Positions 39,234 through 57,451 of a stretch of DNA of 64,000 nucleotides are shown piece after piece. This DNA is from an uncultured Planctomycetota bacterium. GTDB taxonomy: Bacteria > Planctomycetota > Planctomycetia > Isosphaerales > Isosphaeraceae. Below the pieces are notes generated by a model. It made no database searches. It saw only the letters and a list, made by a program, of their open reading frames with translations, and had not been told where the DNA came from. The DNA lies in the NCBI GenBank assembly GCA_963823665.1, contig CAWGMQ010000003.1, forward strand, positions 1,568,001 through 1,632,000, written 5' to 3'. The translations under genes were made by a program, and so were the position numbers. Numbering within the stretch: the stretch's first letter is position 1; every line of letters begins with the position of its first letter.

Positions 39234-41615
39234 ATGTGCGCGCTTTTCCACGGTCTCTCGCTGTTCTCTCCCAATACCCGTCACTCGACCAACGGACAAG
39301 GATCGCCTTCGAAAAGGGCCAAGGAGCCTGTTCGACGGGCACGTCGGGCGCGGTTTGCCATCGAATCGCTTGAAACGCGCGATTTGATGAGCGGGATGGG
39401 CACATCCATGAGCAACATGGCGCCGCCAACAAGAGGCGTCGTCCCGTCGGACATCACTCCCGAGTTTACGCTCGCCGGTCGGGCGGTTTCTTCAACCCAG
39501 GTGAACCTTTCCTGGGTTTTTGCCGCGGGGGACACTTACGTAATTTACGAATTATTGCCCACCGGCAAGAATGTCGGCAATGAGACTAACCTCACTGAGT
39601 CGACAGCCTCAGACAGCTATTCCGTCACGGGACTCTCCCCAGACACCTCGTATACCTTTTACGTCGTCGATATCAACTACGACGTCCCGCGGAATGATCA
39701 AGACATTTTCTCGACCAATCTGACGGTCACCACGTGGGTTGCCGCCCCGTCCTTTGCACTCTCGGCCGTTCCCTCTGGGCAGGCCACGACATCGCAAGTC
39801 AATCTCTCCTGGCAGAGCGTTCCCGGTGCGACCGGCTGCGGTATCCAGTACCAGGCCAACGGCAGCGGACCCTGGATCACGGCCGCTTCTCCGGGACAGA
39901 ACAGTACGAGCTGGTCCGTTACCGGCTTGAATCCGAACACCCCTTACGACTTTGAAATGACCGCATCAAACAGTCTGGGCACGACGACGTCGGCAGCTCA
40001 GAGCGTGACCACGCTGGGCGCGGGCCCGCCGTTTACGCTCTCGGCCCCCTCCTCCACTCAGGTTAGCGCGAACTGGACTGACGTGGCCAACGGAACCGAT
40101 TACGTCGTCGACCAGCAGGCCGCCAACGGCAACTGGGCGTATGCGGCGAGCTCCACGAGCGGCACAAGCGCGCAGATCAGCGGATTGAGTCCCTACACGA
40201 ATTACACCTTCAAGGTTGGTGTGCTCGGGTCGTGGGGCGTCGCCTGGGCCAACCAGCAGAGCATCTACACTCAGCCGGCCCCGCTGACACTGAATGCGAG
40301 TTTGGTTTACCCGGCGCAGGCCAATCTTTCGTGGAACAGTGCATTCGGCGCCAGCAGCTACGTAGTCTACGAACAAGATGCGTCGACCGGTTCTGCCTGG
40401 CAGGCGGTTTACAACACGCCCGGCACCACGTATCAGACGCCCTCACTCAGCGCCGACAGTTACTACAACTTCAAAGTGACTGATCTCGGTGCCTGGGGCG
40501 CTACCACGTCGAATGATCCAGGCGTGCTCACATTAGCGAACGGCCCGACGCTGACCGCGACGCCGGCGGGTTCCACACAGGTCAATCTCTCATGGAACAA
40601 TGTTTTCCCCGGCCAGGGTTACGGCGCGATCAACAACTACGTGGTCGACGAGCAGGTCTCCGGCGGCTGGGAAGAAGTGGCGACGACGGCCACTACCAGC
40701 TTTGGCGTCACCGGCTTGAGCCCCAACGCAACCTACACATTCAAAGTGGGCGCGACGAACACGTCGGGCACGAGCTATTCAAGTAATGTGAGCGCTCTGA
40801 CGTATCCGGCCGCCCCGTCACTGACGGCGATAGCAGTGTCTTCGACGCAGGTCAATCTGTCGTGGAACGGCGTTCCTGGAGGAGCCACGGGCTTCCTGGT
40901 GTTAGAGCAGATATCGGGCGGCTACTCGGTGGTCACCACGCTGGGCAGCGGCGCCACGAGCTACAGCGTAAGCGGCTTGACCCCGGGTACATCCTATGAA
41001 TTCGAGGTCGCCGCCTGCAACGCATCGGGAGAATCCATCTCGAATGCCGCGAAGACGATCACCTTGCCCATCGCTCCAACAATCAGCGCGACGCCGGTTT
41101 CTTCCTCACAGGTCAATCTCTCATGGAATAGCATCACGGGTGCGACAGGCTATTTGATCAATGAGTGGCGGAGTGGCAACCTCCAGCAGATCATCAATGT
41201 GGCGGCGCCAAGCAGCGGCTATTCCGTCACCGGGCTGTTCGCGGACACGACGTACACGTTCCAGGTGGAATCGTACAACGCCTCCGGCTATGCCTGGTCA
41301 AACACTGTGAGCGCGCTCACCTATCCGGCGGCACCGTCGGTGACGTTGACAGCGGTTGGTGCGACCGGAGTCGACATTTCGTGGAATAGTGTCGTCGGTG
41401 CGACCAGCTACGTGATCGACGAATACATCGGTAATGCTTGGGTACAAATCGCGACCGTCAGCAGTGGCACCACGAGCTTCGCGCTGACCGGCTTGTTGGT
41501 CCCGAACTACGGCTACAACTTCATCGTCGGTGCCGTAAACTCGTCGGGCACGACGTGGTCAACGTCCCAGGAGATCATCCTGAAGGGCGAGCGCCCTGGC
41601 CCGCTGCCAGGCTGA
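39234..41615 (+). CDS. Extracellular fibronectin type III repeat protein with planctomycete LEPR-XLL-type leader
   Basis: RRARFAIESLETRDLMS; about 8 units of SSTQVNLSW...VTGLxPxTxYxF. Confidence 0.88.
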   Translation: MCALFHGLSLFSPNTRHSTNGQGSPSKRAKEPVRRARRARFAIESLETRDLMSGMGTSMSNMAPPTRGVVPSDITPEFTLAGRAVSSTQVNLSWVFAAGDTYVIYELLPTGKNVGNETNLTESTASDSYSVTGLSPDTSYTFYVVDINYDVPRNDQDIFSTNLTVTTWVAAPSFALSAVPSGQATTSQVNLSWQSVPGATGCGIQYQANGSGPWITAASPGQNSTSWSVTGLNPNTPYDFEMTASNSLGTTTSAAQSVTTLGAGPPFTLSAPSSTQVSANWTDVANGTDYVVDQQAANGNWAYAASSTSGTSAQISGLSPYTNYTFKVGVLGSWGVAWANQQSIYTQPAPLTLNASLVYPAQANLSWNSAFGASSYVVYEQDASTGSAWQAVYNTPGTTYQTPSLSADSYYNFKVTDLGAWGATTSNDPGVLTLANGPTLTATPAGSTQVNLSWNNVFPGQGYGAINNYVVDEQVSGGWEEVATTATTSFGVTGLSPNATYTFKVGATNTSGTSYSSNVSALTYPAAPSLTAIAVSSTQVNLSWNGVPGGATGFLVLEQISGGYSVVTTLGSGATSYSVSGLTPGTSYEFEVAACNASGESISNAAKTITLPIAPTISATPVSSSQVNLSWNSITGATGYLINEWRSGNLQQIINVAAPSSGYSVTGLFADTTYTFQVESYNASGYAWSNTVSALTYPAAPSVTLTAVGATGVDISWNSVVGATSYVIDEYIGNAWVQIATVSSGTTSFALTGLLVPNYGYNFIVGAVNSSGTTWSTSQEIILKGERPGPLPG

Positions 41616-41954
41616 TACACGGACCGACGCATCCTGATCGGCTCTGCCGCGCGATCGGCGCCTGAAGCTGATCGGTGTGAACAGGTGAGATCCAAACAAC
41701 GAGCCAGGTACGACTTCGACCGGCTGTCGCGATCACCGCGGCGGCCGGTTTCGTCTTCTGGCGTTACCCTTTTTCTTACGAACCGTTTCGCAGGATGGGC
41801 AATCCGACGCAGGTCAGAACGACTAGCGTGGCCACTCGTTGGGCGCGCTTTCCGAAATCTGGATAAAATGTCCGCGGATTTCTTGGCGCCGGCGACGCGG
41901 TTTCGTCGCATTGAGGTAGAGTCGACTTCGTAGTTGCGTGCCGGAGGTGCGGCC

Positions 41955-44900
41955 ATGAACGAAGAAACGCTGTTCCAATTAGCGTTGTCCCGACCTCCCG
42001 AGGAGCGTGCCGGCTTGCTGGAGCGGGAATGCGCAGGGCGGCCGGAGGTCCTGGCGGCTGTCGAGGCACTGCTGGCGGCGCATGAAAAGTCGGGAAACGT
42101 CCTCGACCGTCCCGTGGGCCAGCGTGTGGATTCTGGCCCCGGCCTTGCCCGTGCTGATGCGACCCTCGAACACAGTCCGGGTGCGGACGACTCGTCTCGC
42201 GCAATCTCCGGAACGGAAGATTACCGCCCGATTGCTGCGGCCGGCATCGTCATCGCGGGCCGTTACACTCTCCTGGAGAAGATCGGCGAAGGGGGCATGG
42301 GCGAGGTCTGGGTCGCGAAGCAGACAGAGCCGGTCAAGCGCAAGGTGGCGCTCAAGCTGATCAAGACCGGGATGGACTCGCGAGCCGTGCTGCAACGGTT
42401 CGAGCAAGAGCGGCAGGCGCTGGCGATGATGGATCATCCCAACATCGCCCGCGTTCTCGACGGCGGCCTCACGCCCACAGGCCAGCCGTTCTTTGTCATG
42501 GACCTGGTCAACGGCCTGCCGCTCACAAGATTCTGCGACGAGGCCCGGCTGACGAGCGAAGGGCGGCTGGAGCTCTTCGTGCCGATCTGCCAGGCGGTGC
42601 AGCACGCGCACCAGAAGGGGATCGTCCATCGCGATCTAAAGCCGGCGAACATTCTGGTCACGATCGTCGACGGCAAGCCGATTCCCAAGGTCATCGACTT
42701 CGGCGTGGCCAAGGCGGTCGCCGGCAGGCTGACCGACGAGTCGATGTCGACGCAGTTCGGCGCGGTGATTGGAACATTCGAGTACATGTCGCCGGAACAA
42801 GCGGGCTATTCGGGAGTCGATGTCGATACGCGCGCCGACATCTACTCGCTGGGCGTCATCCTGTACGAACTCCTCACCGGACTGAGGCCCTTTGATGCCA
42901 AACGGCTACGGAATGCGGCGCTCACGGAGATGATTCGGATCATCCGGGAGGAGGAGCCCTCCAAGCCGTCGACACGGCTCTCGACCGATCTATCGCTTCC
43001 CTCGATGGCGGCGCTGCGGCAGATTGAGCCTCGCAAGCTGACGGCTTTGTTGCGCGGCGAGCTGGACTGGGTGGTGATGAAGTGCTTGGAGAAGCACCGG
43101 GAACGGCGGTATGAGACTGCCAGCGCGCTGGCGCGCGACATTCAACGCTACCTCGCCGATGAAGCCGTGGAGGCCCGTCCGGCGTCGACCGGGTATCGGT
43201 TCGGGAAGTTCCTGCGGCGGAATCGGGGGCCGGTGGGGGCCGCGAGCGTGGTGCTGCTGGCCCTCGTTGTCGGCATCGTGGGGACGAGCTATGGGATGAT
43301 CCGGGCGGAGCAGCGGCGGCTTGAGGCGGACGAAGCCCGCAGTCGCGAGGCGCAGCAGCGGGCGAACGCGGAGAAGGCGCGGGACCGGACCCGGCAGGCG
43401 CTCGACGCCATGACCTCGTCGGTCACGGGGGATTCGCTCACGACGCAGAAGGAGATCAGCGACGAGCAGAAGAAGTTCCTGACCGAGGTGCTCTCCTACT
43501 ACCAGGAGTTTGCTGGGGAGAAGGCGGACGACGAACAGTCGCGGGCCCGAACGGCGGCGGCCGCTTTTCGCGTCGGTGTCATCGAGTACCGCCTGGGGCG
43601 ATGGGCAGAAGCGGCGGTCGCGTGCCGACTGGCTATCGACGGCTACGCGAAGCTGGCCGCCGAGTTCCCAGCCGCGCCTGTGTACCGCAACGGCCTGGGC
43701 GGCGGCCGCATCAACCTGGGAATTCTGCTGTCCAACCTGGGGCAGCACCCGGAGGCGGAGCAGCAGTATCGGAAAGCTCTGGTGATCCAGGAGAAGCTGG
43801 CCGCCGAGTTCCCCGCCGTACAGTTGTACCGACGGTTCCTGGGGCACAATCGCGCCAGCCTGGGATCTCTTCTGAGAGATCTGGGGATGGTGACTGAGGC
43901 AGAGGATCAGTGTCGCCAAGCTCTCGCGATCATGGAGAAGCTGGTCGCGGATTTCGCGGCCGTTGAGGACCGCGAGAGCGTCGCCGAGACCCACTCGAGC
44001 CTGGGGGCTCTGCTGGGCCTCCGAGGGAAGCGGCCGGAGGAGGAGGAGCAGTTTCGGAAAGCCCTGGCGATCGGGGAGAAGCTGGTCGCGGAGTTCCCCG
44101 CCGTGCCGGAGTACCGCAACGGCCTGGCCCGCAGCCACAACAATCTGGGGATTCTGCTGGTCGGCCTTGGGAGGCAACTGGAGGCGGAGGAGCGGTACCG
44201 GAAAGCCCTGGCGATCCAGGAGAAGCTGGTCGCAGAGTTCCCCGCCGTGCCGGAGTACCGCAAGGGCCTGGCCGGCACCCACAACAACCTGGGGAATCTG
44301 GTACCCGGGCTGGGGAAGCGGACGGAGGCAGAGGAGCACCATCGGAAAGCCCTGGCGATCCAGGAGAAGCTGGCCGCAGAGTTCCCCGCCGTGCCGAAGT
44401 ACCGAGAGCTCCTGGCTTTAGGCCACCACAACCTGGGGCTTTGGCTGTCCAGTCTGGGGAAGGGGCCGGAGGCGCAGGAGCACCATCGGAAAGCCCTGGC
44501 GATCCTGGAAACGCTGGTCGCCGATATCCCCGCCGTACCGGAGTACCGAAAGTACCTGTCCGGCAGCCATAACGGCCTGGGGAATCTGGTAGCCAGCCTG
44601 GGGCGGCGGCCGGAGGCGGAGGAGCACTATCGGAAAGCCCTAGTGATCCAGGAGAAGCTGGCCGCGGAGTTCCCCGCCGTGCCGGAGTACCGCGATGACC
44701 TGGCAGGCAGCCACAACAACCTCGGGAGTGTGCTGGCCGGCCTGGGGAAGCAGTCGGAGGCGGAAGAGCGGTATCGGAAAGCCCTGGCGATCAGTGAGAA
44801 GTTAGCCGCCGAGTTCCCCGCCGTGCCGGAATACCGCCACAGCCTGGCCAAAAGCGACAGCGGGCTGGGCGCTCTGCTGGCCGGCCTGGGGAAGCGGCCA

Positions 44901-47900
44901 GAGGCAGAGGAGCAGTATCGGAGAGCTCTGGTGATCCAGGAGAAGTTGGTGGCCGAATTCCCCGACGTGCCGGAGTACCGCACGGAACTGGCCAAGAGCC
45001 ACAGCGATCTGGGGCTTGTGTTGGCCGACCTGGGGAAGCGGCCAGAGGCGGAGGAACAGAATCGGACAGCCGTGGTGATCCAGGAGAAGCTGATGGCCGA
45101 GTTCCCCGACGTACCGGAGTACCGCAAGCTTCTGGCCGCAAGCCGCTACAACCTGGGCGTTCTGCTGGCCGACCTGGGGAAGCGGCCAGAGGCGCAGGAG
45201 CAGTATCGGAAAGGCCTGGCGATAGGGGAGAAGCTGGTTGCCGAGTTCCCCGACGTGCCGGAGTACCGCAATGACCTGGGCACCGGCCACAATAACCTGG
45301 GGCTTCTGCTGGCCGATCTGGGGAAGCAGTTTGCGGCGGAGGAGCAGTATCGGAAAGCCCTGGCAATCCAGGAGAAGCTGGCCGCCGAGTTCCCCGCCGT
45401 GCCGCTGTACCGCCGCATCCTAGCCCTCAGCCACCTCAACCTGGGGAATCAACTGGGGCGTCTCGGCAAGCGGCCGGCAGCGAACGAGCGGTATCGGAAA
45501 GCCCTGGCGATCCAGGAGAAGTTGGTGGCCGAATTCCCCGCCGTGCCGAAGTACCGCGCGGAACTGGCCAAGGGCCACAACAATCTGGGGGTTGTGTTGG
45601 CCGACCTCGGGAAGCGGCCGGAGGCGGAGGAGCAGTATCGCAAAGCGCTGGCAATCCAGGAGAAACTCGCCGCCCTCTTCCCGGCCGTGCCGGAGTACCG
45701 CGAGAGCCTGGCCGGCAGCCACGGCAACCTGGGAAATCTGCTGTCCAAGCTGGGGCAGCACTCTGAGGCGGAGCAGCACTATCGGAAAGCTCTGGTGATC
45801 CAGGAGAAGCTGGTCGCCGACTTCCCCGCCGTGGCGGAATACCGAAAGGGCGTGGCCGCCAGCGGCAGCAACCTGGGGAATCTACTCGCCGGCCTGGGCA
45901 AGCGGCCGGAGGCGGAAGAGCTGCATCGGAAAGCGCTGGCGATCCTGGAAAAGCTGGCCGCTGAGTTCCCCGCCGTTTCGGAGTACCGCGAGAGCCTGGC
46001 CGGCGGCCACGGCAGCCTGGGAAATCTGCTCGCCGGCCCGGGGACGTGGCCGGAGGCGGAGGAGCATTTTCGGAAAGCCATGGCCATCTACGAGCAGCTG
46101 GCCACCGAATACCCCACCGTGTCGGCGCATCGCTCGGCACTGGCCATGAGCCACCACAATCTGGGACTTGTGTTGGCCGACCTCGGAAAGCGGCCGGAGG
46201 CGGAGAAGCAGTATCGCAAAGCGCTGGCGATCCAGGAGAAGTTGGCCGCTGAGTTCCCCGCCGTGCCGGAGTACCGCCATAACCTGGCGAACAGCGAGCA
46301 CAGCCTGGGGAAGCTGCTATCAGGACTGGGGAAGGGGCCGGAGGCAGAGCAGAAGTATCGGAAAGCCATGGCCATCCACGAGAAGCTGGCCACCGAATAC
46401 CCCGCCGCGCCGGACTACCGCGGCGCCCTGGCCGTCAACCACACCGGCCTGGGGCTTCTGCTGGCCGGCATGGGGAAGCGGGCGGAGGCGGAGGAGCAGT
46501 ATCGGAAAGCCCTGGCGATCCTGGAAACGCTGGCCGCCGAGTTCCCCACTGTGCGGCAGTACCGAGTCGACCTGGGTGGTGATTACTGCAATTTCGGCGC
46601 TCTGGTCATGGGCGGCGGCCAGCCGAGTGAGAGCCTGGAGTGGTTCGACAAAGCCATTCGCATTTTGACGGCCGTCTACGAACAGGATCGCGGGTTCGTT
46701 ATGGCCAGAGCATTTCTGCGAAATAGCCACTTCGGCCGAGCTCAGGCCTATGATCTCTTGCGAAAGTTCACCGAAGCGATCAGGGACTGGGACAAGGCCG
46801 TCGAGCTCAGCCCGGAGGAGTACGTCACGGAGCTCCGCCGAAATCTGGCCAGCAGCCACGCTGGCCTGGGGGATCTGCTGGCTGGCCTGGGTAATCGGGC
46901 GGAGGCGGAGGAGCCGTATCGGAAAGCCCTCGCGATTCGGGAGAAGCTAGTCGCCGAGTTCCCCGGCGTGCCGGAGTACCGCAACGTCCTGGCCCGCAGC
47001 CACAACAAACTGGGGATCCTGCTGGCCGGCCTTGGGAGGCAGCCGGAGGCGGAGGAGCGGTATCGGAAAGCCCTGGCGATCCAGGAGAAGCTGGCCGCCG
47101 AGTTTCCCGCCGTGCCGGAGCACCGCACTGCCGTGGCCGGCAGCCACAATGACCTTGGGAACCTGCTGGCCGGCCTGGAAAAGCGGCCGGAGGCGGAAGA
47201 GCAGTATCGGAAAGCCCTGGCGATCGAGGAGAAGCTGGTCGTCGAGTTCCCCGCCGTGCCGGCGTACCGCACGATGCTGGCCAGCAGCAACGACTACCTG
47301 GGGATTCTGTTGCCCGGCCTGGGCAAAGGGCTCGAGGCGGAGGATCAGTTTCGGAAAGCCCTGGCGATTCGGGAGAGGCTGGTCGAAGAGTTCCCAGCCG
47401 TGCCGCAATATCGAGTCGCGCTGAGTGCTGGTTACTGCAACCTGGGCGGTCTGGTGAGTAACAGCGGTCGGCCCGGTGAAAGCTTGGAGTGGTTCGAGAA
47501 AGCCATCCGCACATTGACGCCTGTGTACGAACAGGATCGCCGGTTGGTTCTGGCGAGAGAGTTTCTCCGCACTTGTCACCGGAACCGAGCCACTACTTAT
47601 TATCGCCTGCGGAAGTTCACCGAGGCGATCAAGGACTGGGACAAGGCCATCGAGCTCAGTCCGGCGGCAGAGCAACCAGGGCTGCGCGCGTCACGGGCCA
47701 CATCGCGGGTGCAGGCGGGTGAGATGGCCGAGGCCGTGGCGGAGGTTGCCGAGCTGACGAAGTCCCTTGAGTGGAATTCCGGTCAGTGGTACGACTTTGC
47801 CTGCGTCTACGCCGTCGCCAGCGGCAAGAGCGCTGACAAGAAGCAGGAGTATGCCGACCGGGCGATGGAACTGCTGCGAAATTCTGTCAAGGGCGGGTGG

Positions 47901-48023
47901 AAGGACGCCGCACATATGGCCAAGGACACGGATCTTGATGCCATCCGGGGGCGGGAGGACTTCAAGAAGTTGATTGAGGGGTTGGCGAGGAATTCGCCGG
48001 ACGAAAATGAGCGGAAACCGTGA
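41955..48023 (+). CDS. Ser/Thr kinase with TM helix and giant 48-aa TPR array (kinase A)
   Basis: GEGGMG, HRDLKPAN, VIDFG; about 24 units of EKLxAEFPAVPEYR..LA..H..LG at 144-bp period; GGAGGT RBS. Confidence 0.93.
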   Translation: MNEETLFQLALSRPPEERAGLLERECAGRPEVLAAVEALLAAHEKSGNVLDRPVGQRVDSGPGLARADATLEHSPGADDSSRAISGTEDYRPIAAAGIVIAGRYTLLEKIGEGGMGEVWVAKQTEPVKRKVALKLIKTGMDSRAVLQRFEQERQALAMMDHPNIARVLDGGLTPTGQPFFVMDLVNGLPLTRFCDEARLTSEGRLELFVPICQAVQHAHQKGIVHRDLKPANILVTIVDGKPIPKVIDFGVAKAVAGRLTDESMSTQFGAVIGTFEYMSPEQAGYSGVDVDTRADIYSLGVILYELLTGLRPFDAKRLRNAALTEMIRIIREEEPSKPSTRLSTDLSLPSMAALRQIEPRKLTALLRGELDWVVMKCLEKHRERRYETASALARDIQRYLADEAVEARPASTGYRFGKFLRRNRGPVGAASVVLLALVVGIVGTSYGMIRAEQRRLEADEARSREAQQRANAEKARDRTRQALDAMTSSVTGDSLTTQKEISDEQKKFLTEVLSYYQEFAGEKADDEQSRARTAAAAFRVGVIEYRLGRWAEAAVACRLAIDGYAKLAAEFPAAPVYRNGLGGGRINLGILLSNLGQHPEAEQQYRKALVIQEKLAAEFPAVQLYRRFLGHNRASLGSLLRDLGMVTEAEDQCRQALAIMEKLVADFAAVEDRESVAETHSSLGALLGLRGKRPEEEEQFRKALAIGEKLVAEFPAVPEYRNGLARSHNNLGILLVGLGRQLEAEERYRKALAIQEKLVAEFPAVPEYRKGLAGTHNNLGNLVPGLGKRTEAEEHHRKALAIQEKLAAEFPAVPKYRELLALGHHNLGLWLSSLGKGPEAQEHHRKALAILETLVADIPAVPEYRKYLSGSHNGLGNLVASLGRRPEAEEHYRKALVIQEKLAAEFPAVPEYRDDLAGSHNNLGSVLAGLGKQSEAEERYRKALAISEKLAAEFPAVPEYRHSLAKSDSGLGALLAGLGKRPEAEEQYRRALVIQEKLVAEFPDVPEYRTELAKSHSDLGLVLADLGKRPEAEEQNRTAVVIQEKLMAEFPDVPEYRKLLAASRYNLGVLLADLGKRPEAQEQYRKGLAIGEKLVAEFPDVPEYRNDLGTGHNNLGLLLADLGKQFAAEEQYRKALAIQEKLAAEFPAVPLYRRILALSHLNLGNQLGRLGKRPAANERYRKALAIQEKLVAEFPAVPKYRAELAKGHNNLGVVLADLGKRPEAEEQYRKALAIQEKLAALFPAVPEYRESLAGSHGNLGNLLSKLGQHSEAEQHYRKALVIQEKLVADFPAVAEYRKGVAASGSNLGNLLAGLGKRPEAEELHRKALAILEKLAAEFPAVSEYRESLAGGHGSLGNLLAGPGTWPEAEEHFRKAMAIYEQLATEYPTVSAHRSALAMSHHNLGLVLADLGKRPEAEKQYRKALAIQEKLAAEFPAVPEYRHNLANSEHSLGKLLSGLGKGPEAEQKYRKAMAIHEKLATEYPAAPDYRGALAVNHTGLGLLLAGMGKRAEAEEQYRKALAILETLAAEFPTVRQYRVDLGGDYCNFGALVMGGGQPSESLEWFDKAIRILTAVYEQDRGFVMARAFLRNSHFGRAQAYDLLRKFTEAIRDWDKAVELSPEEYVTELRRNLASSHAGLGDLLAGLGNRAEAEEPYRKALAIREKLVAEFPGVPEYRNVLARSHNKLGILLAGLGRQPEAEERYRKALAIQEKLAAEFPAVPEHRTAVAGSHNDLGNLLAGLEKRPEAEEQYRKALAIEEKLVVEFPAVPAYRTMLASSNDYLGILLPGLGKGLEAEDQFRKALAIRERLVEEFPAVPQYRVALSAGYCNLGGLVSNSGRPGESLEWFEKAIRTLTPVYEQDRRLVLAREFLRTCHRNRATTYYRLRKFTEAIKDWDKAIELSPAAEQPGLRASRATSRVQAGEMAEAVAEVAELTKSLEWNSGQWYDFACVYAVASGKSADKKQEYADRAMELLRNSVKGGWKDAAHMAKDTDLDAIRGREDFKKLIEGLARNSPDENERKP

Positions 48024-48223
48024 GGGAAGGAACAACCGAAGATCAAGCGACTGGCGAGTCGGGCCTGGTCATCGTGGGGTGCTCCAGGCTGCGGGAGTCG
48101 GCGGCGTGATGGGGAGATGCTCATTCCGCGGGCTTTGCCGGGCCTGAGGTCATCAATTTGAGGTCGTCGCGTGCGCGTTCGCTTTGGCCTCTCGCGGCAA
48201 ATCGTGAGGCGATCGCTTGAATT

Positions 48224-48339
48224 GGCGGGCGGCACACGGAGTGTGCCTGCTACGTGGAGAAATGCGTCAGGCTAAAGCCTGACCTACGCTCTCGTGTCTC
48301 TGGAATGATGATAATGCGTCAGGCTAAAGCCTGACCTAC
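48224..48339 (-). repeat. Cluster of three GTAG REPs from two families
   Basis: 48224-48253, 48265-48287, 48317-48339. Confidence 0.85.
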
Positions 48340-49106
48340 TTGGGGGGCAGGTATGAGCGGGACCAGGCGGCATCTTTGGGGGAGAGGCGAGGCTCGGGGC
48401 GGGTCGCGTAGATGAAGTCGGCGTAGCCGGTTGAATCATAGACGTGTTCGAGGATCTCCTGAAGGTCGATTCGCGCGTCGGGGTCGGCGGGACGCAATGG
48501 GATCGGGATGACGGGTAGGCGCTGGCGCAAGGCGATCGGCCAGAAGCCGGCCCAGGGGCGGGCTTCGGCGCGGCTTACCAGTACGGAGTAGTCGCAGTTG
48601 GGGCGTTTCTCCAGCGGCATCGGGCGGCCGCCGCGGAGCAGGTCGATTTCGACGAAGTGCGCAGTTGCTCTGGAGCAATTCTTCGCGCTTGGCCACGAAT
48701 TGCTCGCGGTCGGCACCGGCACGCTTGTTTGATGGGCTCAGCATTTCGACGACCGTGATCAACTCGCGCCCGAGGCGATCCCGGACTTCTAAAAAAGGGA
48801 CGCGGCGCAGATCCTGGATGGGGATATGGACCTGTGTGGGTGCGTCGAGGATTGCCACTCCCGCGCTCGCTTCTTGCGCCTGGACTTCTTTGGCGCGGCT
48901 AGCGAGACGTCGGAGCGGCCCACCAGCCGGCACGGCGCGGCCGGGACCTCCTGGACATACAAATGCTCGTCGAGCATCACGATGTATTTCGGCCGCACCT
49001 GGGCGACCAGCCGTGCGCGAATCGCGGGCAGGAACTCCAGGTGGAAATCGTGCCAGAACGCATCCTGCTCGATGAAGGGGTTCATGCCTGGGAATGGTGA
49101 TGGCAT
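48336..49106 (-). CDS. DUF4058 family protein (frameshifts near 48880 and 48675)
   Basis: MPSPFPGMNPFIEQ..WHDFH; ITVVEMLSPSNK; HFVEIDLLRGG; LPVIPIPL. Confidence 0.85.
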
Positions 49107-49206
49107 CGAGATGATTCCATATGGGCCGGAACTACCGAGCTCGGGCGAGCGCATTAACAGGATCTAGCGTAGCACGGGTGTGCGTCAACGGCACACACGC
49201 GCGTTT

Positions 49207-49848
49207 CCAGGGCGCAGAGCCCCTGGCTGTTGACCTTTGCCCCGTTGGGGCAATTCGATGTCCGGACGCCAGCGCACCGCGGAGCGGCACAAGGTACATT
49301 CCGACGCGGGAGCGTTGGGAAGAGAACGCGTCGCCGAGCTGCTCCCAGCGGGATCGACCGCGAGTGCGCCGCAGAGCGGCTCGAAGAACATTCCCACGCG
49401 GGAGCGTCGGAACGAGGAGAATGGGAACGCTCTTTCGCGGAGCGAAAGGCGACGATCGGGCGCGGTCGAACTCATCGCGTGTGGGCACTCGTGTGGTTCG
49501 ACCGCGAGTGCGCCGCAGAGCGGCTCGAAGAACATTCCCACGCGGGAGCGTCGGAACGAGGAGAATGAGAACGCTCTTTCGCGGAGCGAAAGGCGACGAT
49601 CGGGCGCGGTCGAACTCATCGCGTGTGGGCACTCGTGTGGTTCGACCGCGAGTGCGCCGCAGAGCGGCTGGAAGAGCGTTCCCACGCGGGAGCGTCGGAA
49701 CGAGGAGAATGGGAACGCTCTTTCGCGGAGCGAAAGGCGACGATCGGGCGCGGTCGAACTCATCGCGTGTGGGCACTCGTGTGGTTCGACCGCGAGTGCG
49801 CCGCAGAGCGGCTGGAAGAGCGTTCCCACGCGGAGCATGGGAACGAGG
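49207..49848. repeat. BIME-like mosaic: leader module plus 144-bp tandem repeat (~3.4 copies)
   Basis: Unit starts tcgaccgcgagtgcgcc at 49354, 49498, 49642 and 49786; each unit has three REP hairpins. Confidence 0.92.
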
Positions 49849-49988
49849 CGCAACGAGGAGCGGGGGCACTTATTCGGCGTACGTTCCGAATTCTGGATAT
49901 GATGTGCGAGGGATTCCTGATGCCGGCGACGCCGTCTCGTCGCACTGGGGTAGAGTCCACTTCGTAGTTGCTCGCCCGAGGTGCGGCC

Positions 49989-52536
49989 ATGAACGAAGAA
50001 ACGCTGTTCCAGGAAGCTTTGTCACGACCTCCCGACGAGCGTGCCGCCTTTCTGGAGCAGGAGTGTGCGGGGCGGCCGGAGGCCCTGGCGGCTGTCGAGG
50101 CACTGCTGGCGGCGCACGATATGTCGGGAAACGTCCTCGACGAGCGTGCGGACCGGACCCTGGATTCTGGCCCTGGACAGGCCAGTCCTGACGCCACCCT
50201 CGAGCACACTCCGGGTGCGGACGACGCGTCTGCCGCCGTCTCCGAAACCGAAGACTACCGCCCGATTGCTCCGGCCGGCATCGTCATCGCGGGGCGCTAT
50301 GCTCTCCTGGAGAAGATTGGCGAAGGGGGCATGGGCGAGGTCTGGGTCGCCAAGCAGACAGAGCCGGTCAAGCGCAAGGTGGCGCTCAAGCTGATCAAGA
50401 CCGGGATGGACTCGCGAGCTGTGCTGCAACGGTTCGAGCAGGAGCGGCAGGCGCTGGCGATGATGGATCATCCCAATATCGCGAAGGTGCTTGATGGCGG
50501 GCTTACGCCCAGCGGCCAGCCGTTCTTCGTCATGGAGCTGGTTTCCGGCCTGCCGCTGACAAGGTTTTGCGATGAGGCGAGGCTGAAGACCGAAGAGCGG
50601 CTGGAATTGTTTGTGCGCATCTGCCAGGCGGTGCAGCACGCGCATCAAAAGGGGATCGTGCACCGTGATCTCAAGCCGGCTAACATCCTGGTCACGATCG
50701 TCGACGGCAAGCCGATTCCCAAGGTCATCGACTTCGGCGTGGCCAAGGCGGTCGCCGGCAGGCTGACTGACGAATCGATGTCGACTCAGTTTGGCGCGGT
50801 CATCGGCACGTTAGAATATATGTCGCCGGAGCAGGCGAGTTTCTCGGGGATCGACATCGATACGCGCGCGGATATCTATTCGCTCGGCGTCATCCTTTAC
50901 GAATTGCTCACCGGCCTGAGGCCGATTGACGGCAGACGCCTGAGGAATGCGGCACTTACCGAGATGATTCGGATCATCCGGGAGGAGGAGCCTTCCAAGC
51001 CGTCGACGCGACTCTCGACGGATGAGTCGCTTCCGTCGATCGCGGCGCTGCGGCAGATTGAGCCTCGCAAGTTGACGGCCTTGTTGCGCGGCGAGCTGGA
51101 TTGGGTGGTGATGAAGTGTCTGGAGAAGCACCGGGAACGACGCTATGAGACGGCCAATGCGCTGGGCCGGGACGTGCAGCGCTACCTCGCTGATGAAACT
51201 GTGGAGGCCCGGCCGCCGTCGGCGGGGTATCGGTTGAGCAAGTTCTTGCGTCGGAACAAGGGGCCCGTGCTGGCGGCGAGTCTGGTGGTGCTGGCCTTGG
51301 TCGGCGGGATCGTCGGCACGACGGTCGGGATGCTGAGGGCGGATCGAGCGCGGGCGGCCGAGGCGAGACAACGCGGCATTGCGGAGGTGAATGAAGCGAA
51401 GGCTCTCCTTGCGGCCGAGGCGGAAAGGAAGGCGAAGGACCGGGAGGCCGAGCAGCGGGCGAAGGCGGAGAAGGCGCGGGACCGGACGCGGCAGGCACTC
51501 GATGCCATGACCTCGTCGGTCACCGGGGATTCGCTCACCACCCAGAAAGAGATCAGCGACGAACAGAAGAAGTTCTTGACCGAGGTGCTGTCGTACTACC
51601 AGGAGTTTGCCGGCGAGAAGGCCGACGACGAACCGTCGCGGGCCCGAACGGCGAAGGCGGCCTATCGGGTCGGTCACATCGAGTACCGCTTGGGCCGAAC
51701 CGCGGAAGCGCTGGCAGCCATCCGCCTCGCCGTCGACGGGTACGCGAAGCTGGACGCAGAGTTCCCTGCCCGGCCGGCGTACCAGCAGGCCCTGGCCAAC
51801 AGCCACAACAATCTGGGGCTTCTGCTGGCCGGCCTGGGGAAGGGGCTGGAGGCGGAGGAACAGTATCGGAAAGGTGCGGCGATCCGGGAAGACTGGTCGC
51901 CGAGTTCCCCGCGGTGCCACAATATCGAGTCGAGCTGGGGCGTGCTTACTACAATGTCGGCATTCAGGTGGGGAACCGCACCCAGCTTGGTGAAAGCCTG
52001 GAGTGGTTCGAGAAAGCCATCCGCACATTGATGCCGGTATACGAGCAGGATCGCCGGTCGGCCACGGCCAAGCAGCTTCTCCGCGATAGCCACCGGAACC
52101 GGGCCATTGCTTACGATCGCCTGCGGAAGTTCCCCGAGGCGATCAATGACTGGGACAAGGCCATCGAGCTCAGCCCGACGCCAGAGCAACCAGGCTTTCG
52201 CGCGTCGCGGGCCACATCGCGAGTCCAAGCCAGTCAGGTGGCCGAGGCTGTGGCGGAGGTCGCCGAGCTGACAAAGAACCCGACGTGGAACTCCATTCAG
52301 CGCTACGACTTTGCCTGCGTCTACGCCGTTGCAACGGCAAGATCGCCGACAAGAAGCAGGAGTATGCCGACCGGGCGATGGACCTGCTGCGAAATGCGGT
52401 GAGGGCCGGCTACAACGACGTCGCACACATGGCCAAGGACACGGATCTTGATGCTATCCGGGGACGGGAGGACTTCAAGAAGTTGATTGAGGAGCTCACG
52501 AAGAGATCGCCGGACGAAAAACAGCCGAAACCGTGA
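49989..52536 (+). CDS. Ser/Thr kinase-TPR paralog with minimal repeat array (kinase B; frameshifts near 51890 and 52330)
   Basis: Near-identical to kinase A across the kinase domain; continues in ORFs 51914..52402 and 52285..52536. Confidence 0.85.
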
Positions 52537-53063: not shown

Positions 53064-53334
53064 GAGGAGGCGCGGCTTGGGCATGACGCGGGGAGGAGTG
53101 CCCTGCCTGAATCGCTTCAGGCGAGATCGACCCTGCGGATTGTGTGGATTCAACCGCCTGCGGTTTCCACGGAATCAAAGAAGGATTTAACAAACGCGGG
53201 GCTCTGGACGACGTTCTTAATAAGGCAATTCGGGCAAGCTTGATAAGAGCTGACGAGGCGGAGCTTTCCTGGGCTGTTCGGTGTTGAAAAGAGCTGTTTT
53301 CTCAGCGAAACGAAGTGAAAAGGAGAGAATCATC

Positions 53335-54999
53335 ATGGTGAGCGAAGCCAAGATTGCGGCGAACCGCAGGAACGCCACAAAAAGCTGCGGGCCCAAAACG
53401 GAGGCTGGTAAGAAAATCGCCCGATTCAATGCACTCACGCATGGAATGACAGCTGAAATTGCGATGTTGCCGGAGGAGGATGCGGCGGTTTATGAATCGC
53501 GCCGGAGGGACTGGTTCGAGCAGTACAAGCCGCGGAATGGTGTGGAAGCGGCCAAGGTTGAACGGAGTTTTTACTTGTGGTGGCAACTCGGGCGGATCGG
53601 ACGTGCACAGTCGGCGCAGCTCTGTGAGAAATCCCGGACGGCGGAGAGTGAACGGCTGGCGAGTGAAGCCAGAGAGACGATCGAGCTGTCGATCAAGCTC
53701 TTTCTGCCGACCCCGGAGGCTCGCTGGGGGACTGCGGAGAATTCGACGCGCGACCGAGGTTTTGAGCATCCCGCACTGATCGAGAGCCGGCTGGAAGAAC
53801 TGGAGGACGGCTGCCGGTGGCTTCACGCGCAGTGGAAGGAGGAAGCCGCGATTCTGGACGCAGGCAAAGCTTGGGGGGCGATCGAGTGCTTCAAGGCGAT
53901 CAGGCTGATGGGAATGCATGTCCTCTCGGCTATCGATCTCAACGAGGTGGCCGATTTCCTGCGGCCGTGCGTGGCACTGGCCGGAAAGGGAATCGGGCTG
54001 GCGAGGGAAACATGGACGCTGCTTGCTCCGCCCGATGCCGAGCGAGGTTGGGAGGTGCTGCGCAGCCAGTTGGAACCATGTGACGCGCTGCCCATGGGCG
54101 CGGAAGAAGCGAGGGAATGGTTACGCGAGACAGTCGAAACGCAGATCGGGCGGCTGGCCGAGAAAATCGAGGAGCACGAAAGCGTCGCCGAGGTCCTCGG
54201 GACACTGGCGCGTGACCTGCATGCTTTCGACTGGAGCCCTCTCGCCGAGCGGACGCGACGGTACGAGCGGGCCTGTCAACGAACCGTCGACCGAATCGAT
54301 CGCGAGCTAGAAACACGGCCTTGGCTGTCGTCTGAGCAATTCGTGCCGGCATCTACGTCGTACCGGAGGCTGACCCCGAGCTTGATGCAATCCATGCGTG
54401 CGAGGTTAATGGCGGGTGATGCGATCGGCGCAGCCGACGACGATGATGAGGACGAAGCTGCTCGCCAGCAAAACGAAGCCAACGGACACGACGCCGTTGA
54501 ATCGACGATGAAGTTCGTCGATGACGGGCGGACGCATGTTTGCGAAGCCGAGGGCGACACCCCTGGCAGGCACGAAGTAACGATGAATTATGGCGATACG
54601 GCCGCTCGACGAAACGAAGCCAACGGGCATGAGCGGTCGGGAGAAGCGCCGCGACGAAACGAAGCCAACGGGGTCGACGGAGCGTCGCCCTTGATGCGAC
54701 GAAACGAAGCCAACGGCACGGAAGAGGGTTCGGTCGCGACGATTGACGAGTTTGAGAGGTCGAAGGTCGCCGGCGGCTCGCGCGGCGATGGTACCTCGTC
54801 CGAAGAAACAAGTGGCGAAACACCGCAACAATCGACTGACCTCGCGTGTGAGACCCAGGCTGAGGCGGTCGAGAGGCGCCAGGTGGGCTCGGCGACGGTG
54901 ACACGATTCAGCCTTGCTGCGGGCGTGAACGGAAATAGGGCCGATTCGCGCCGTGAGCGCCGTGCGCGGCGGCGGGAAATGCGGCAACGAACCCGTTGA
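53335..54999 (+). CDS. Uncharacterised protein (AANRRNA..S.GPKT..GK..NAL.HG N-terminus; RRNEANG C-terminal repeats)
   Basis: AAGGAG RBS; 554-codon open frame; basic N-terminal motif. Confidence 0.8.
   Translation: MVSEAKIAANRRNATKSCGPKTEAGKKIARFNALTHGMTAEIAMLPEEDAAVYESRRRDWFEQYKPRNGVEAAKVERSFYLWWQLGRIGRAQSAQLCEKSRTAESERLASEARETIELSIKLFLPTPEARWGTAENSTRDRGFEHPALIESRLEELEDGCRWLHAQWKEEAAILDAGKAWGAIECFKAIRLMGMHVLSAIDLNEVADFLRPCVALAGKGIGLARETWTLLAPPDAERGWEVLRSQLEPCDALPMGAEEAREWLRETVETQIGRLAEKIEEHESVAEVLGTLARDLHAFDWSPLAERTRRYERACQRTVDRIDRELETRPWLSSEQFVPASTSYRRLTPSLMQSMRARLMAGDAIGAADDDDEDEAARQQNEANGHDAVESTMKFVDDGRTHVCEAEGDTPGRHEVTMNYGDTAARRNEANGHERSGEAPRRNEANGVDGASPLMRRNEANGTEEGSVATIDEFERSKVAGGSRGDGTSSEETSGETPQQSTDLACETQAEAVERRQVGSATVTRFSLAAGVNGNRADSRRERRARRREMRQRTR
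54466..54716 (+). repeat. 20-bp direct repeat cgacgaaacgaagccaacgg with 25-bp unique spacers
   Basis: Exact copies at 54607, 54652 and 54697; 3-mismatch copy at 54466. Confidence 0.9.
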
Positions 55000-55193: not shown

Positions 55194-55266
55194 GCTGGCG
55201 TAGCTCAACCGGTAGAGCATCGGTTTTGTAAACCGAGGGTTGTGAGTTCGAGTCCCACCGCCAGCT
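55194..55266 (+). tRNA. tRNA-Thr(TGT)
   Basis: GCTGGCG/CGCCAGC acceptor stem, anticodon loop ttTGTaa, TTCGA T-loop; CCA not encoded. Confidence 0.95.
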
Positions 55267-55337
55267 CTGCCGGAGGCGGTTATTCAGCGTGTTGTGTTGT
55301 GGGCTTTACCGGGTTGTACGGGGAAGCCGGGGATTTC

Positions 55338-55419
55338 GGGTGGATACCCAAGCGGCCAAAGGGGCCAGACTGTAAATCTGGTGGCAATGCCTTCGCAGGT
55401 TCGAATCCTGCTCCACCCA
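55338..55419 (+). tRNA. tRNA-Tyr(GTA)
   Basis: GGGTGGA/TCCACCC stem, ctGTAaa, long variable arm. Confidence 0.95.
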
Positions 55420-55475
55420 TGTCGCGTCCGATTGGGTTGGACTGGGTTCGACTAGGCGGCTCGATGGGAGAAACC

Positions 55476-55546
55476 GCGGGTGTAACTCAATGGTAGAGTA
55501 CCTGCCTTCCAAGCAGGCAACGTGGGTTCGATTCCCATCACCCGCT
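55476..55546 (+). tRNA. tRNA-Gly(TCC)
   Basis: GCGGGTG/CACCCGC stem, ctTCCaa. Confidence 0.95.
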
Positions 55547-55638
55547 TTCATCCGGGGTGTGCGGAAGAGTGGTCGCGGAAAGGCAGCGAACGCGGAAGCA
55601 GCAGGACGGGTCAGATGATGAGGGTTGTGTGAGGAAAT

Positions 55639-55711
<73 letters not shown>

Positions 55712-55882
55712 CTGGCGTTCTTGAAGCCGGGCCATTTTGCATATGGTCCGCGGGAATCTTGGTGGTTTCGTCTGAGTACATTACATCGGGCTTGTCTTGA
55801 GCCGGCATGGCAAGCTTGCAGCGGGTTTCGCCGGTGGGGCCTTCACAAAGCCTGATGCTTCTAGGAGACGACGGGAGAAACG

Positions 55883-57094
55883 ATGGCCAAGGAAACTTTC
55901 ACGAGAACCAAGCCGCACGTCAACGTGGGCACAATCGGGCACATCGATCACGGCAAAACGACCCTCACGGCCGCAATCCTGGCGGTCCTGGCCGAGCGCG
56001 GCAAGGCCAAGACCAAATCGTACCAGGATATTGCCAAGGGAGGGACTGTGCGCGATTCGACCAAGACGGTGACGATCGCCGTCTCGCACGTTGAGTACGA
56101 GAGCGAGAAGCGGCATTACGCCCACATCGACTGCCCGGGGCACGCCGATTACATCAAGAACATGATCACGGGCGCGGCCCAGATGGATGGGGCGATCCTG
56201 GTGGTCTCGGCCGCCGACGGCCCGATGCCGCAGACCCGCGAACACATCCTGCTTGCGCGTCAGGTCGGCGTGCCGGCCCTGGTCGTGTTCCTCAACAAAA
56301 TCGACCTGGTCGACGACGAGGAGCTGCTGGAGCTGGTCGAGATGGAGCTGCGCGAGCTGCTCACGCACTACAAGTTCCCGGGGGACGAGATCCCGATCGT
56401 GCGCGGCAGCAGCCGTCCGGCGCTTGAGAACCCCAAGGACGAGAAGGCCGCGAAGCCGATCCTGGACCTGGTGAAGGCGATGGACGAATACATCCCCGAG
56501 CCGGTGCGCGAGATCGACAAGCCGTTCTTGATGCCGATTGAAGACGTCTTCTCGATCAAGGGCCGCGGCACGGTGGGCACGGGCCGGATCGAGCGCGGCA
56601 AGTGCAAGGTGGGCGACGCGGTCGAGATCGTCGGCTTCGGCGTGAAGAAAGCGTCGACGATCACCGGCGTCGAGGCGTTTCAGAAGACGATGGACGAGGG
56701 AATGGCCGGCGACAACGTCGGGGTGCTCCTGCGAGGCGTTGAGAAGACCGACCTCGAGCGCGGGCAGGTGGTCTGCAAGCCGAACTCGATCACCCCGCAT
56801 ACGAAATTCGAGGCCGAGGTGTACGTTCTCAGCAAGGATGAAGGCGGAAGGCACACGCCGTTCTTCAAGGGCTATTGCCCGCAGTTTTATTTCCGTACCA
56901 CGGACGTGACCGGCTCGATCTTGAACCTCCTGTCTGAGAACAACACGGAGGCCGAGATGTGCATGCCGGGTGACAATATCAAGATGACCGTCGAGCTCAA
57001 GACACCGATCGCGATGGAGGAAAGCCTGCGGTTCGCCATTCGCGAGGGGGGCAAGACGGTCGGAGCGGGCGTCGTGGCGAAGATCCTCGAGTGA
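55883..57094 (+). CDS. tuf: Elongation factor Tu
   Basis: [21 protein letters not shown]; canonical context. Confidence 0.99.
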
Positions 57095-57160
57095 CGCGCC
57101 GGGATGGCTCGCGCCTTTGATCGGCATGACGAATTGAGTTGAATCGAATCAAGAAAAGAT

Positions 57161-57194
57161 GGCGACTCGGTCTCCGAAAGGTGACCGAGTCGCC
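57161..57194. terminator. Strong hairpin downstream of tuf
   Basis: ggcgactcggtc...gaccgagtcgcc with inner ccGAAAgg; A-rich 5' flank, no + strand U-tract. Confidence 0.5.
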
Positions 57195-57298
57195 GAGCTA
57201 TCTACACCCTGTCGAACACGTAGCAAGCGGTGAGTCTCGGGCTCCTTGTATTCGCGGGGCTCTGAGAAGTTGACGGGAAGAGGGGCAGGAGCAAGCAA

Positions 57299-57451
57299 AT
57301 GCGGGAATACGTCTGGCTCGAATGCAGCACGTGCGGCGAACGAAACTACCGGGTGCAGAAGGAAACACGCGGCGCCAACCGGCTTGAACTGAAGAAATAC
57401 TGCAGCCGCGAAAGGAAGCACACGCCACACAAGGAATCACGCAAGAAATAG
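57299..57451 (+). CDS. rpmG: 50S ribosomal protein L33
   Basis: MREYVWLECSTCGERNYRVQKETRGANRLELKKYCSRERKHTPHKESRKK; too short for the ORF track. Confidence 0.95.
   Translation: MREYVWLECSTCGERNYRVQKETRGANRLELKKYCSRERKHTPHKESRKK

What the first reader, a model, noticed from the sequence alone, without database searches (positions are those of the whole stretch)
41955..52536. Twin receptor-like kinases: one with about 24 hypervariable 48-aa repeats, the other with about 1
Seen: kinases A and B are near-identical through the kinase domain, TM helix, linker and C-terminal cap. A has about 20 repeats, a cap, 4 more repeats and a second cap; B has one repeat and a cap. In A the scaffold (EKLxAEFPAVPEYR, EAEEQYRKALAIQ) is conserved at DNA level, while fixed slots vary in nearly every unit: YR[xx]LA[xx]H[xx]LG[x], for example NG/RS/NN, KG/GT/NN, EL/LG/HN, DD/GS/NN, HS/KS/SG, RI/LS/LN. 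Many variable codons are NNC variants of AAC/AGC (aac, cac, agc, tac, ctc, ggc, gac, acc). Known: TPR helix-A residues form the ligand groove, and fungal NLRs diversify WD40/TPR arrays by concerted evolution. Inference: an accordion-like, recombination-diversified sensor kinase system, possibly for non-self recognition. The NNC pattern resembles DGR adenine mutagenesis, but no reverse transcriptase is in the window and GC3 bias can explain it.
Basis: partly seen in the sequence, partly recalled or inferred. Interest (0 to 1): 0.8.

Follow-up and report, generated by a model that had tools for sequence, protein, structure and literature searches.

The report
Receptor kinase with fast-evolving repeat sensor
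A bacterium, likely a planctomycete, encodes a membrane kinase whose 24 repeats keep their scaffold but vary at the predicted ligand-binding groove, likely under positive selection, next to a broken one-repeat sibling; it is likely a variant of known kinase-to-sigma-factor sensors, and its variation does not come from a mutating retroelement.

Summary
Kinase A (41955-48023) has 20 units, a cap, 4 units and a cap. Kinase B has one unit but is frameshifted twice, and A and B are old paralogues (kinase dS 0.49). Both belong to the ECF43-sigma/PknS-type receptor kinases: 9 of 11 related loci have an ECF sigma gene directly upstream. A and B keep only its last ten codons and would signal in trans; the genome has 41 such sigmas. 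Variable slots fall on TPR groove positions 2, 5, 6, 9 and the same helix face. My codon site models support positive selection (LRT 25-35, omega about 2.7-3), with a similar result in three paralogues. A DGR is rejected: the single DGR found targets C-type-lectin domains, and NNC is just a conserved third base. Active accordion turnover is not seen in A (no exact repeat of 40 nt or more, PHI not significant) but is seen or suggested in relatives. Non-self sensing is untested. This scan had already noted ECF/kinase modules in this genome and another. Verdict: new variant of a known kind.

The parts
41885..41914 (+). Ten-codon tail and stop of an ECF43-type sigma gene left upstream of kinase A; the sigma gene body is absent
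   Evidence: Aligns with the 3' ends of the intact ECF genes in L107 and L122. No TIGR02999 match in the window.
41955..48023 (+). Kinase A, 2022 aa, intact single-pass Hanks-type receptor kinase with a 24-unit TPR array
41955..42263 (+). N-terminal extension of A (103 aa before the kinase domain), conserved in the family; PknS also has an N-terminal extension (83 aa)
   Evidence: Alignment; PMC13147305 passage. Homology to the PknS segment was not tested.
42264..43133 (+). Ser/Thr kinase domain of A with intact GEGGMG, VALK, HRDLKPAN and DFG motifs
   Evidence: Pfam Pkinase E=7e-42; motifs located
43233..43292 (+). Single predicted TM helix after an Arg-rich stretch; places the array outside the cytoplasm (inferred)
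   Evidence: Hydropathy peak 2.26; no other window above 1.6
43665..46541 (+). First TPR array: 20 units of 144 nt (unit 3 is 141 nt)
   Evidence: AlphaFold model of 10 units: pLDDT 93.7, two helices per unit at residues 5-24 and 28-48.
46542..46814 (+).
   Evidence: P0010 shows a recent cap-plus-units duplication with the same junction.
46815..47390 (+). Second TPR array: 4 units; A22 is 93% identical to A04
47391..48023 (+). Terminal cap with TPR_END_plus domain
   Evidence: NF047558 at 60.8 bits against a cut-off of 32
48336..49154 (-). DUF4058 gene between the kinases, split here and intact (256 aa) at the syntenic locus of G001
49916..49945 (+). ECF sigma tail remnant upstream of kinase B
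   Evidence: 10/10 aa identical to the C-terminus of the L107 ECF
49989..52536 (+). Kinase B: kinase 50298-51167, TM 51270-51329, one unit from 51762, cap 51905-52536; frameshifts at ~51890 and ~52332; probable decaying or truncated paralogue

Best explanation
Kinase A is a single-pass Ser/Thr kinase with a 24-unit TPR array whose groove positions vary between units, likely under positive selection; it likely works as a PknS-type receptor that binds an extended polypeptide outside the inner membrane and would then phosphorylate an ECF43-type sigma factor encoded elsewhere in the genome. SHOWN: the domain layout and intact catalytic motifs; a TPR solenoid model; variable columns on one face of helix A; linkage of the family to TIGR02999 sigma genes that carry the conserved Thr; an ECF tail scar before both A and B; omega above 1 in my site models. 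INFERRED: periplasmic location of the array; a peptide or protein ligand in the groove; activation when the ligand relieves inhibition or drives dimerisation, as proposed for PknS; action in trans on one or more of the 41 sigmas; a changing, probably foreign, ligand as the cause of selection. The array grew by older unit and block duplication and then diverged by point mutation and selection. B is a sibling whose sensor has shrunk and broken.
For: Layout. Fold: pLDDT 93.7; best structural match is the LGN TPR domain bound to a peptide, Z 32.1, rmsd 3.6 A over 317 residues. Unit column c equals TPR position c-11 (Pfam TPR_1 match), so columns 13, 16, 17, 20, 23 and 24 are positions 2, 5, 6, 9, 12 and 13, the ligand contacts in PMC1261162. 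With columns 9 and 10 they fall in one 140-degree arc of the helical wheel. Selection in A: M1a vs M2a LRT 35.3 under GY94 and 25.4 under MG94, omega 2.7, sites 9, 10, 13, 16 at posterior >=0.95. Selection in the 22 C12 units: LRT 30.5 and 28.7, sites 13 and 20 shared. In 21 null simulations, 14 with segment shuffling, the highest LRT was 9.5. In 50 disjoint close unit pairs from 33 of 120 homologues, 45% of differences fall in these 8 of 48 columns against 17% expected. ECF gene directly upstream in 9 of 11 loci, before the C12 trio and in L107. The Thr is invariant in 17 of 17 aligned sigmas. Mechanism of PknS and EcfK: PMC13147305. Complex prediction of A(1-415) with the C12 sigma gave weak support: 0.44 against best control 0.00, with runs agreeing in >=45% of contacts and partner pLDDT >=60. 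That mark was reached by 116 of 157 solved and 2 of 215 mismatched pairs; at 0.60 or under, by 18 solved pairs and both mismatches.
Against: No ligand, expression or phosphorylation data exist. The site models are my own code with naive empirical Bayes, a fixed FastTree topology and poorly supported unit trees. Column 35 was positive under GY94 only, and column 20 fell to 0.51-0.76 under MG94 in A. Nine G001 units gave no significant test (LRT 1.9). Overall unit dN/dS is below 1 (0.27/0.38). Groove variability is a property of TPRs in general (PMC1261162). No ECF motif was seen upstream in L121, L145 or L146, and L103 has only a degenerate remnant. A has lost its own sigma and the syntenic locus of G001 keeps only a 222-bp remnant, so A may be dispensable. 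The complex score lies in the range where passes are more often wrong than right unless the pair was likely beforehand.
Confidence: 0.55

Rival explanations
1. Ordinary birth-and-death of a large kinase family: groove residues are merely unconstrained, and the long array of A and the short array of B are neutral outcomes of duplication and decay.
For: 124 kinase matches and 41 sigmas in the genome. B is broken and both kinases lost their sigma. The locus is replaced in G001. Unit trees are star-like. An earlier scan note (e1-2569085) describes decay of such modules in this genome.
Against: M8a vs M8, which allows a neutral class, is still rejected (LRT 29.0 and 24.5 in A; 21.4 and 27.5 in C12). 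A stays open over 6 kb. The same columns top the differences among close pairs in other genomes.
Confidence: 0.15
2. One reading: an actively recombining accordion, like fungal HNWD or NLR-TPR arrays, that keeps generating new non-self receptors within populations.
For: L115 units are 97-99% identical and differ mainly at columns 13 and 24. L119 (5 units) and L120 (2 units, a chimera of units 2 and 5) are otherwise 99.9% identical. P0010 carries a recent cap-plus-units duplication. G028 has 97% identical units next to an assembly gap. Unit dS between paralogues (0.37-0.38 for two of three) is below their kinase dS (0.55-0.63), which suggests exchange.
Against: In A there is no exact repeat of 40 nt or more, the closest pair is 93% identical, and PHI is not significant. 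0 of 120 homologous arrays reach 85% mean identity. The L119/L120 crossover lies in a 35-nt identical stretch and may be an assembly collapse. The listed pieces of runs X1 and X2 inside A's array match with 0 differences, but they are short and shallow.
Confidence: 0.15
3. The array reads self-made peptide signals (quorum or kin labels), as Rap, NprR and PlcR TPR receptors do, and diversifies together with its peptides.
For: Structural neighbours include RapI (Z 25.0), RapH, NprR and PlcR. An earlier scan note (e1-1163083, unchecked) links ECF/kinase-TPR modules to repeat-peptide genes in another genome.
Against: I saw no peptide or exporter gene beside A among the ORFs scanned, though I did not search for short peptide genes. 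Fold likeness among TPR solenoids does not show function.
Confidence: 0.12
4. The units are diversified by a diversity-generating retroelement that mutates template adenines.
For: Columns 16, 17 and 20 have AAC or AAT as the commonest codon. Consensus-A sites at codon positions 1-2 within columns 9-20 vary more (0.34) than non-A sites (0.22). The genome does hold a DGR.
Against: Only one DGR-type RT was found. Its template encodes a C-type-lectin motif, differs from its local VR only at adenines (18 of 18), and matches nothing in the arrays. In A, third bases inside columns 9-20 vary more (0.19) than outside (0.15), and 13 of 31 variable columns carry A in at most one unit. In young L115 units the AAC codons at columns 16 and 17 are invariant. 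Unit-like DNA hits that I inspected lay in coding TPR arrays.
Confidence: 0.02

Closest known systems
PknS/EcfK of Xanthomonas citri and PknT/EcfP of Vibrio parahaemolyticus (ECF43 sigma activated by a Hanks kinase; PMC13147305, PMC7826278)
   Same: N-terminal extension, cytoplasmic kinase, one TM helix, C-terminal TPR region; family encoded beside an ECF sigma with the conserved sigma-2.2 Thr (QATA here, QTTA consensus).
   Different: PknS is 833 aa with three Pfam TPRs, whereas A has 24 elongated 48-aa units and an internal cap. A and B have lost the adjacent sigma. The genome has 41 such sigmas. No T6SS link was tested.
Planctomycetota membrane Ser/Thr kinases with tandem periplasmic TPR arrays (PMC11032199)
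   Same: Same layout, lineage-specific expansion, function described as mostly unknown.
   Different: The paper reports up to 15 TPR domains per protein. In the passages read it gives no 48-aa unit, no site-selection test and no sigma linkage.
Fungal NLR TPR, ANK and WD repeats with high internal conservation (PMC4986451)
   Same: Positive selection at predicted binding positions and variable repeat number across genes.
   Different: No NACHT or NB-ARC domain; membrane kinase output; mean unit identity 62% against the 85% criterion; within-species repeat polymorphism not shown.
LGN/Pins TPR domains (4wng, 4a1s)
   Same: Best structural match (Z 32.1, rmsd 3.6 A, 317 aligned); long-helix TPR solenoid solved with peptide ligands.
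   Different: Eukaryotic adaptor, 24% identity; a fold analogy only.
CLec-targeting DGRs of multicellular bacteria (PMC10907252)
   Same: This genome has one such DGR with a kinase-containing target on C8.
   Different: It does not target the TPR kinases.

Membership tests
ECF43-associated (PknS/PknT-type) receptor kinase | Hanks kinase domain with intact catalytic motifs | tested here: met
   Pfam Pkinase 144 and 147 bits; motifs present in A and B
ECF43-associated (PknS/PknT-type) receptor kinase | Single TM helix and C-terminal extracytoplasmic sensor | tested here: met
   One hydrophobic peak followed by the TPR array; sidedness is inferred
ECF43-associated (PknS/PknT-type) receptor kinase | Co-encoded ECF43 sigma gene at this locus | tested here: not met
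   No TIGR02999 match in the window; only a ten-codon tail remains
ECF43-associated (PknS/PknT-type) receptor kinase | Close homologues co-encoded with a sigma bearing the conserved phospho-acceptor Thr | tested here: met
   9 of 11 loci; C12 sigma over the TIGR02999 cut-off; Thr in 17 of 17. Assigning these sigmas to ECF43 rests on the motif in PMC13147305, not on an ECF group profile.
ECF43-associated (PknS/PknT-type) receptor kinase | Direct phosphorylation of the sigma | not testable with these tools
   Only a weak complex prediction, 0.44 against 0.00
TPR solenoid with groove specificity positions | Helix-pair repeats matching TPR profiles; variability at positions 2, 5, 6, 9, 12, 13 | tested here: met
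Fungal-type NLR with concerted-evolution repeats | NACHT or NB-ARC domain | tested here: not met
   None in Pfam or NCBIfam scans of A
Fungal-type NLR with concerted-evolution repeats | High internal conservation (85% or more) | tested here: not met
   Mean 62% aa; 0 of 120 homologues reach an 85% mean. L115 units do reach it.
Fungal-type NLR with concerted-evolution repeats | Positive selection at binding positions | tested here: met
Fungal-type NLR with concerted-evolution repeats | Repeat-number polymorphism among strains | tested here: inconclusive
   No run spans A; L119 vs L120 may be polymorphism or an assembly collapse
DGR target | Template repeat matching the variable region except at adenines | tested here: not met
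   genome 92% complete
DGR target | Non-adenine positions invariant within the variable span | tested here: not met
   31 of 36 columns vary, and 13 of them carry A in at most one unit

The most novel reading that the evidence does not exclude
Planctomycetes run an innate-immune-like repertoire of dozens of receptor kinase/ECF43 sigma channels whose periplasmic 48-aa TPR solenoids are reshuffled by unit recombination and driven by positive selection against proteins of predators, competitors or phages. This would be a bacterial, membrane-bound parallel of fungal NLR repeat diversification, with kinase A as an extreme 24-unit, two-module receptor built by block duplication or gene fusion.
Probability: 0.25. 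Interest if true: 0.75.

Novelty: new variant of a known kind. Interest (0 to 1): 0.4.

Why it matters
The function of TPR arrays in planctomycete kinases is described as mostly unknown (PMC11032199), and the PknS paper leaves the role of its periplasmic TPR domain open (PMC13147305). Site-specific positive selection on the groove suggests that the ligand changes over time. It also names the residues to swap (unit columns 9, 10, 13, 16, 20) and the read-out (sigma phosphorylation), which makes the question testable. The 48-aa unit with about eight free positions is also a natural repeat scaffold. The architecture and the signalling logic are already known, which caps the score.

Tried and rejected
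DGR origin: one DGR RT among 22 RT matches of 26 candidates, with a lectin-type template. A hypothetical adenine-rich template pattern with up to 3 mismatches had no match; this is a narrow test. Pooled dN/dS of 1.10/0.55 on six columns was chosen after seeing the entropy, so it is circular and I do not rely on it. Column 35 as a selected site was rejected as a codon-frequency artefact. A true orthologue for a repeat-number comparison was not found: the syntenic locus in same-genus G001 lacks both kinases apart from a 222-bp cap remnant. The linker query hit 5 of 120 other family genomes at E<=1e-35, with at most 32 candidates scored per genome. No RNA holder was listed, which says nothing about expression. 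No contig spans A, and the joints have short sides and likely come from other organisms. The second frameshift of B is not covered by the listed pieces (268 pieces were not shown). rpoB and rpoC are each split in this assembly, so it may be an error. I did not count units in every paralogue. Literature searches found no report of positive selection on TPR units of bacterial receptor kinases; the library is open-access only and no supplements were read. Domain tables in the supplements of PMC11032199 may bear on array lengths.
Full report
OBSERVATION. The window is G000:C3:1568001-1632000 of a 16.46-Mb, 12-contig, 92%-complete genome. It is likely a planctomycete: five of the six named relatives other than L115 are Planctomycetota (L115 is titled Acidobacteriaceae). 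Kinase A starts at 41955 and is one frame of 2022 aa. It has a kinase domain at 104-393 with intact motifs and one TM helix at 427-446. A unit HMM finds 20 units, a cap, 4 units and a cap. The 22 regular units average 75.6% DNA and 62% protein identity. Entropy peaks at columns 10, 9, 13, 16, 20 and 42. B (49989-52536) has one unit and a cap, read in three frames. A and B share 269/290 kinase residues but only 14/20 TM and 105/143 cap residues; kinase dN is 0.041 and dS 0.49. They are old paralogues in a family with 124 matches (150 of 762 candidates scored). The closest three lie in tandem on C12 with 8, 5 and 9 units.

IS B REAL? The assembly has residual indels: rpoB and rpoC are each split. 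But a 270-base contig of run X2 covers 51848-52117 with no difference and no gap, bridging the unit-to-cap junction and the first frameshift (depth about 2; 16 pieces listed, 268 not shown; independence of the run from the source campaign is unknown). So the junction and the first frameshift are probably real. No listed piece covers 51768-51847 or the second frameshift. B is best read as a decaying or truncated copy.

FOLD AND VARIABLE SITES. AlphaFold on 10 of the 24 units, without alignment, gave pLDDT 93.7 and two long helices per unit. Foldseek and VIA-align return TPR solenoids; the best is LGN with a bound peptide (Z 32.1, rmsd 3.6 A, 317 aligned). The Pfam TPR_1 match sets column c equal to TPR position c-11. 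Columns 13, 16, 17, 20, 23 and 24 are therefore positions 2, 5, 6, 9, 12 and 13, the ligand contacts listed in PMC1261162 (passages). Columns 9 and 10 extend the same helix face (wheel). Column 42 lies on helix B and does not fit this face. Across the best 120 of 974 long homologues, arrays have 6-15 units, so A's 24 is the longest I saw; the other 854 were not listed. In 50 disjoint unit pairs of 80% identity or more from 33 proteins, 45% of differences fall in those 8 columns against 17% expected.

SELECTION. I wrote codon site models. For A's 24 units, M1a vs M2a gave LRT 35.3 under GY94 and 25.4 under MG94, with omega 2.7 for 11% of sites; columns 9, 10, 13 and 16 were at posterior 0.95 or more, 42 at 0.85 and 20 at 0.51. 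The 22 C12 units gave 30.5 and 28.7, with sites 6, 13 and 20 strongest. Nine G001 units were not significant (1.9). Twenty-one null simulations, 14 with shuffled segments, reached at most 9.5. The scaffold is under purifying selection (dN 0.19, dS 0.36). Caveats: own code, weak trees, naive Bayes.

DGR. Of 22 RT matches one has the DGR-type motif (motif label recalled), and a search with it finds no second. Its template differs from the adjacent lectin-type VR at 18 of 18 positions only at adenines, which is a positive control. It matches that VR, a remote site on C5 and one weak site, none in the arrays. In A, third bases are about 85% conserved everywhere, vary more inside the slot span than outside (0.19 vs 0.15), and 13 of 31 variable columns carry A in at most one unit. 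NNC is what first- and second-base substitution leaves when the ancestral third base persists. Against my reading, consensus-A sites in the span do vary more than non-A sites (0.34 vs 0.22).

RECOMBINATION. A has no exact repeat of 40 nt or more, and PHI p is 0.05-0.37. The best partner of 21 of 24 units lies within A, but mean identity within A (75.0%) barely exceeds that to C12 units (72.6%). A04 and A22 are 93% alike across the internal cap. The two caps differ as much as paralogue caps do (dS 0.58), which points to an old block duplication or a fusion of tandem genes. Relatives show younger events. L115 units are 97-99% identical and differ at columns 13 and 24. L119 and L120 are 99.9% identical but carry 5 and 2 units with a chimeric unit; polymorphism or assembly collapse is undecided. 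P0010 has a recent cap-plus-units duplication with A's junction. So the family can expand and contract, but A's array is old and 0 of 120 arrays reach 85% mean identity, unlike the fungal repeats of PMC4986451 (passages).

OUTPUT. An ECF sigma motif lies directly upstream in 9 of 11 related loci (L114 has too little upstream DNA, L121 shows none, and L119/L120 are near-identical), before the C12 trio and in L107. It is also upstream in 2 of 4 further loci tested with one motif (L148 is probably the same contig as L116). The genome has 41 matches over the TIGR02999 cut-off among 112 (150 of 362 candidates scored), none in the window. Seventeen aligned sigmas all keep the Thr of the QATA-type motif, matching the ECF43 phosphosite described in PMC13147305 (passages) and the kinase-linked groups in PMC7826278 (passages). 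A and B each retain the last ten codons of such a sigma gene; this could be a deletion scar or a conserved leader copied with the kinase. A complex prediction with the C12 sigma gave weak support (0.44, best control 0.00). At the syntenic locus of same-genus G001 the neighbours are conserved, A is reduced to a 222-bp remnant beside an unrelated kinase, and B is absent.

MECHANISM. Shown: layout, motifs, fold model, site pattern, sigma linkage of the family. Inferred: the array sits in the periplasm (as predicted for this class in PMC11032199; passages and first part of the Discussion); it binds an extended polypeptide along its groove; this activates the kinase, which phosphorylates an ECF43-type sigma in trans. 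Diversifying selection suggests a changing ligand. PknS's role in amoeba resistance makes a foreign one plausible, but nothing here identifies it.

NOVELTY. The architecture and signalling logic are known, and this scan had noted such modules before. PMC10907252 and PMC7159879 (passages) describe lectin-targeting DGRs and conflict systems, not these arrays, in the passages seen. I found no paper reporting site-specific positive selection in bacterial receptor-kinase TPR units (open-access library, no supplements read). Verdict: new variant of a known kind, interest 0.4. The immune-repertoire reading has probability about 0.25 and would merit 0.75.

Noticed in passing
L053:13343-15273 (G000:C8) and L133 (G000:C5:1153404-1153527): A complete DGR: RT, HRDC accessory gene, template, and a kinase-containing lectin-domain target (18 of 18 mismatches at adenines). 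A remote candidate target on C5 has 17 of 25 mismatches at adenines and lies just upstream of an ORF that looks like a subtilisin-type protease (label recalled).
   Followed up: partly
window 49354-49848: Non-coding 144-bp tandem repeat (3.4 copies, 97%) right before kinase B, unrelated in sequence to the TPR unit by eye. Similar elements occur in G001 near window homologues 23013 and 27528; REP-like (label recalled).
   Followed up: no
window 39234-41615: 793-aa fibronectin type III repeat protein upstream of kinase A, absent from the syntenic locus of G001.
   Followed up: partly
L106:7889-12413 (G001:C9): At the syntenic site an inverted, unrelated kinase-ATPase-repeat gene replaces the fn3 gene and kinase A; the region near the tRNA/tuf cluster turns over.
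   Followed up: partly
window 33266-36814: TPR-CHAT protein with 8.6 copies of a 126-bp (42-aa) repeat at 82% match; appears duplicated or rearranged in G001.
   Followed up: no
window 53281-54999: 572-aa ORF with no Pfam or NCBIfam hit, with short internal repeats, conserved at 67% DNA identity in G001.
   Followed up: no
window 62158-64000 and L131: rpoB and rpoC are each split into two frames, so the assembly has residual indel errors; the DUF4058 split may be another.
   Followed up: yes
L001-L007: Seven group II intron-type RT copies with identical scores and frame lengths (634 aa), suggesting recent spread.
   Followed up: no
P0002, P0010: Internal cap duplications recur in homologues; P0010 uses the same junction as kinase A.
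   Followed up: partly
L063, L065-L067, L070-L072, L130: Other kinase subfamilies in the same genome use their own 48-aa unit consensus, up to about 15 units, with variation at the same columns by eye.
   Followed up: no
window 55194-57861: tRNA-Thr, Tyr, Gly, Thr, tuf and tRNA-Trp cluster 2.7 kb downstream of kinase B.
   Followed up: yes
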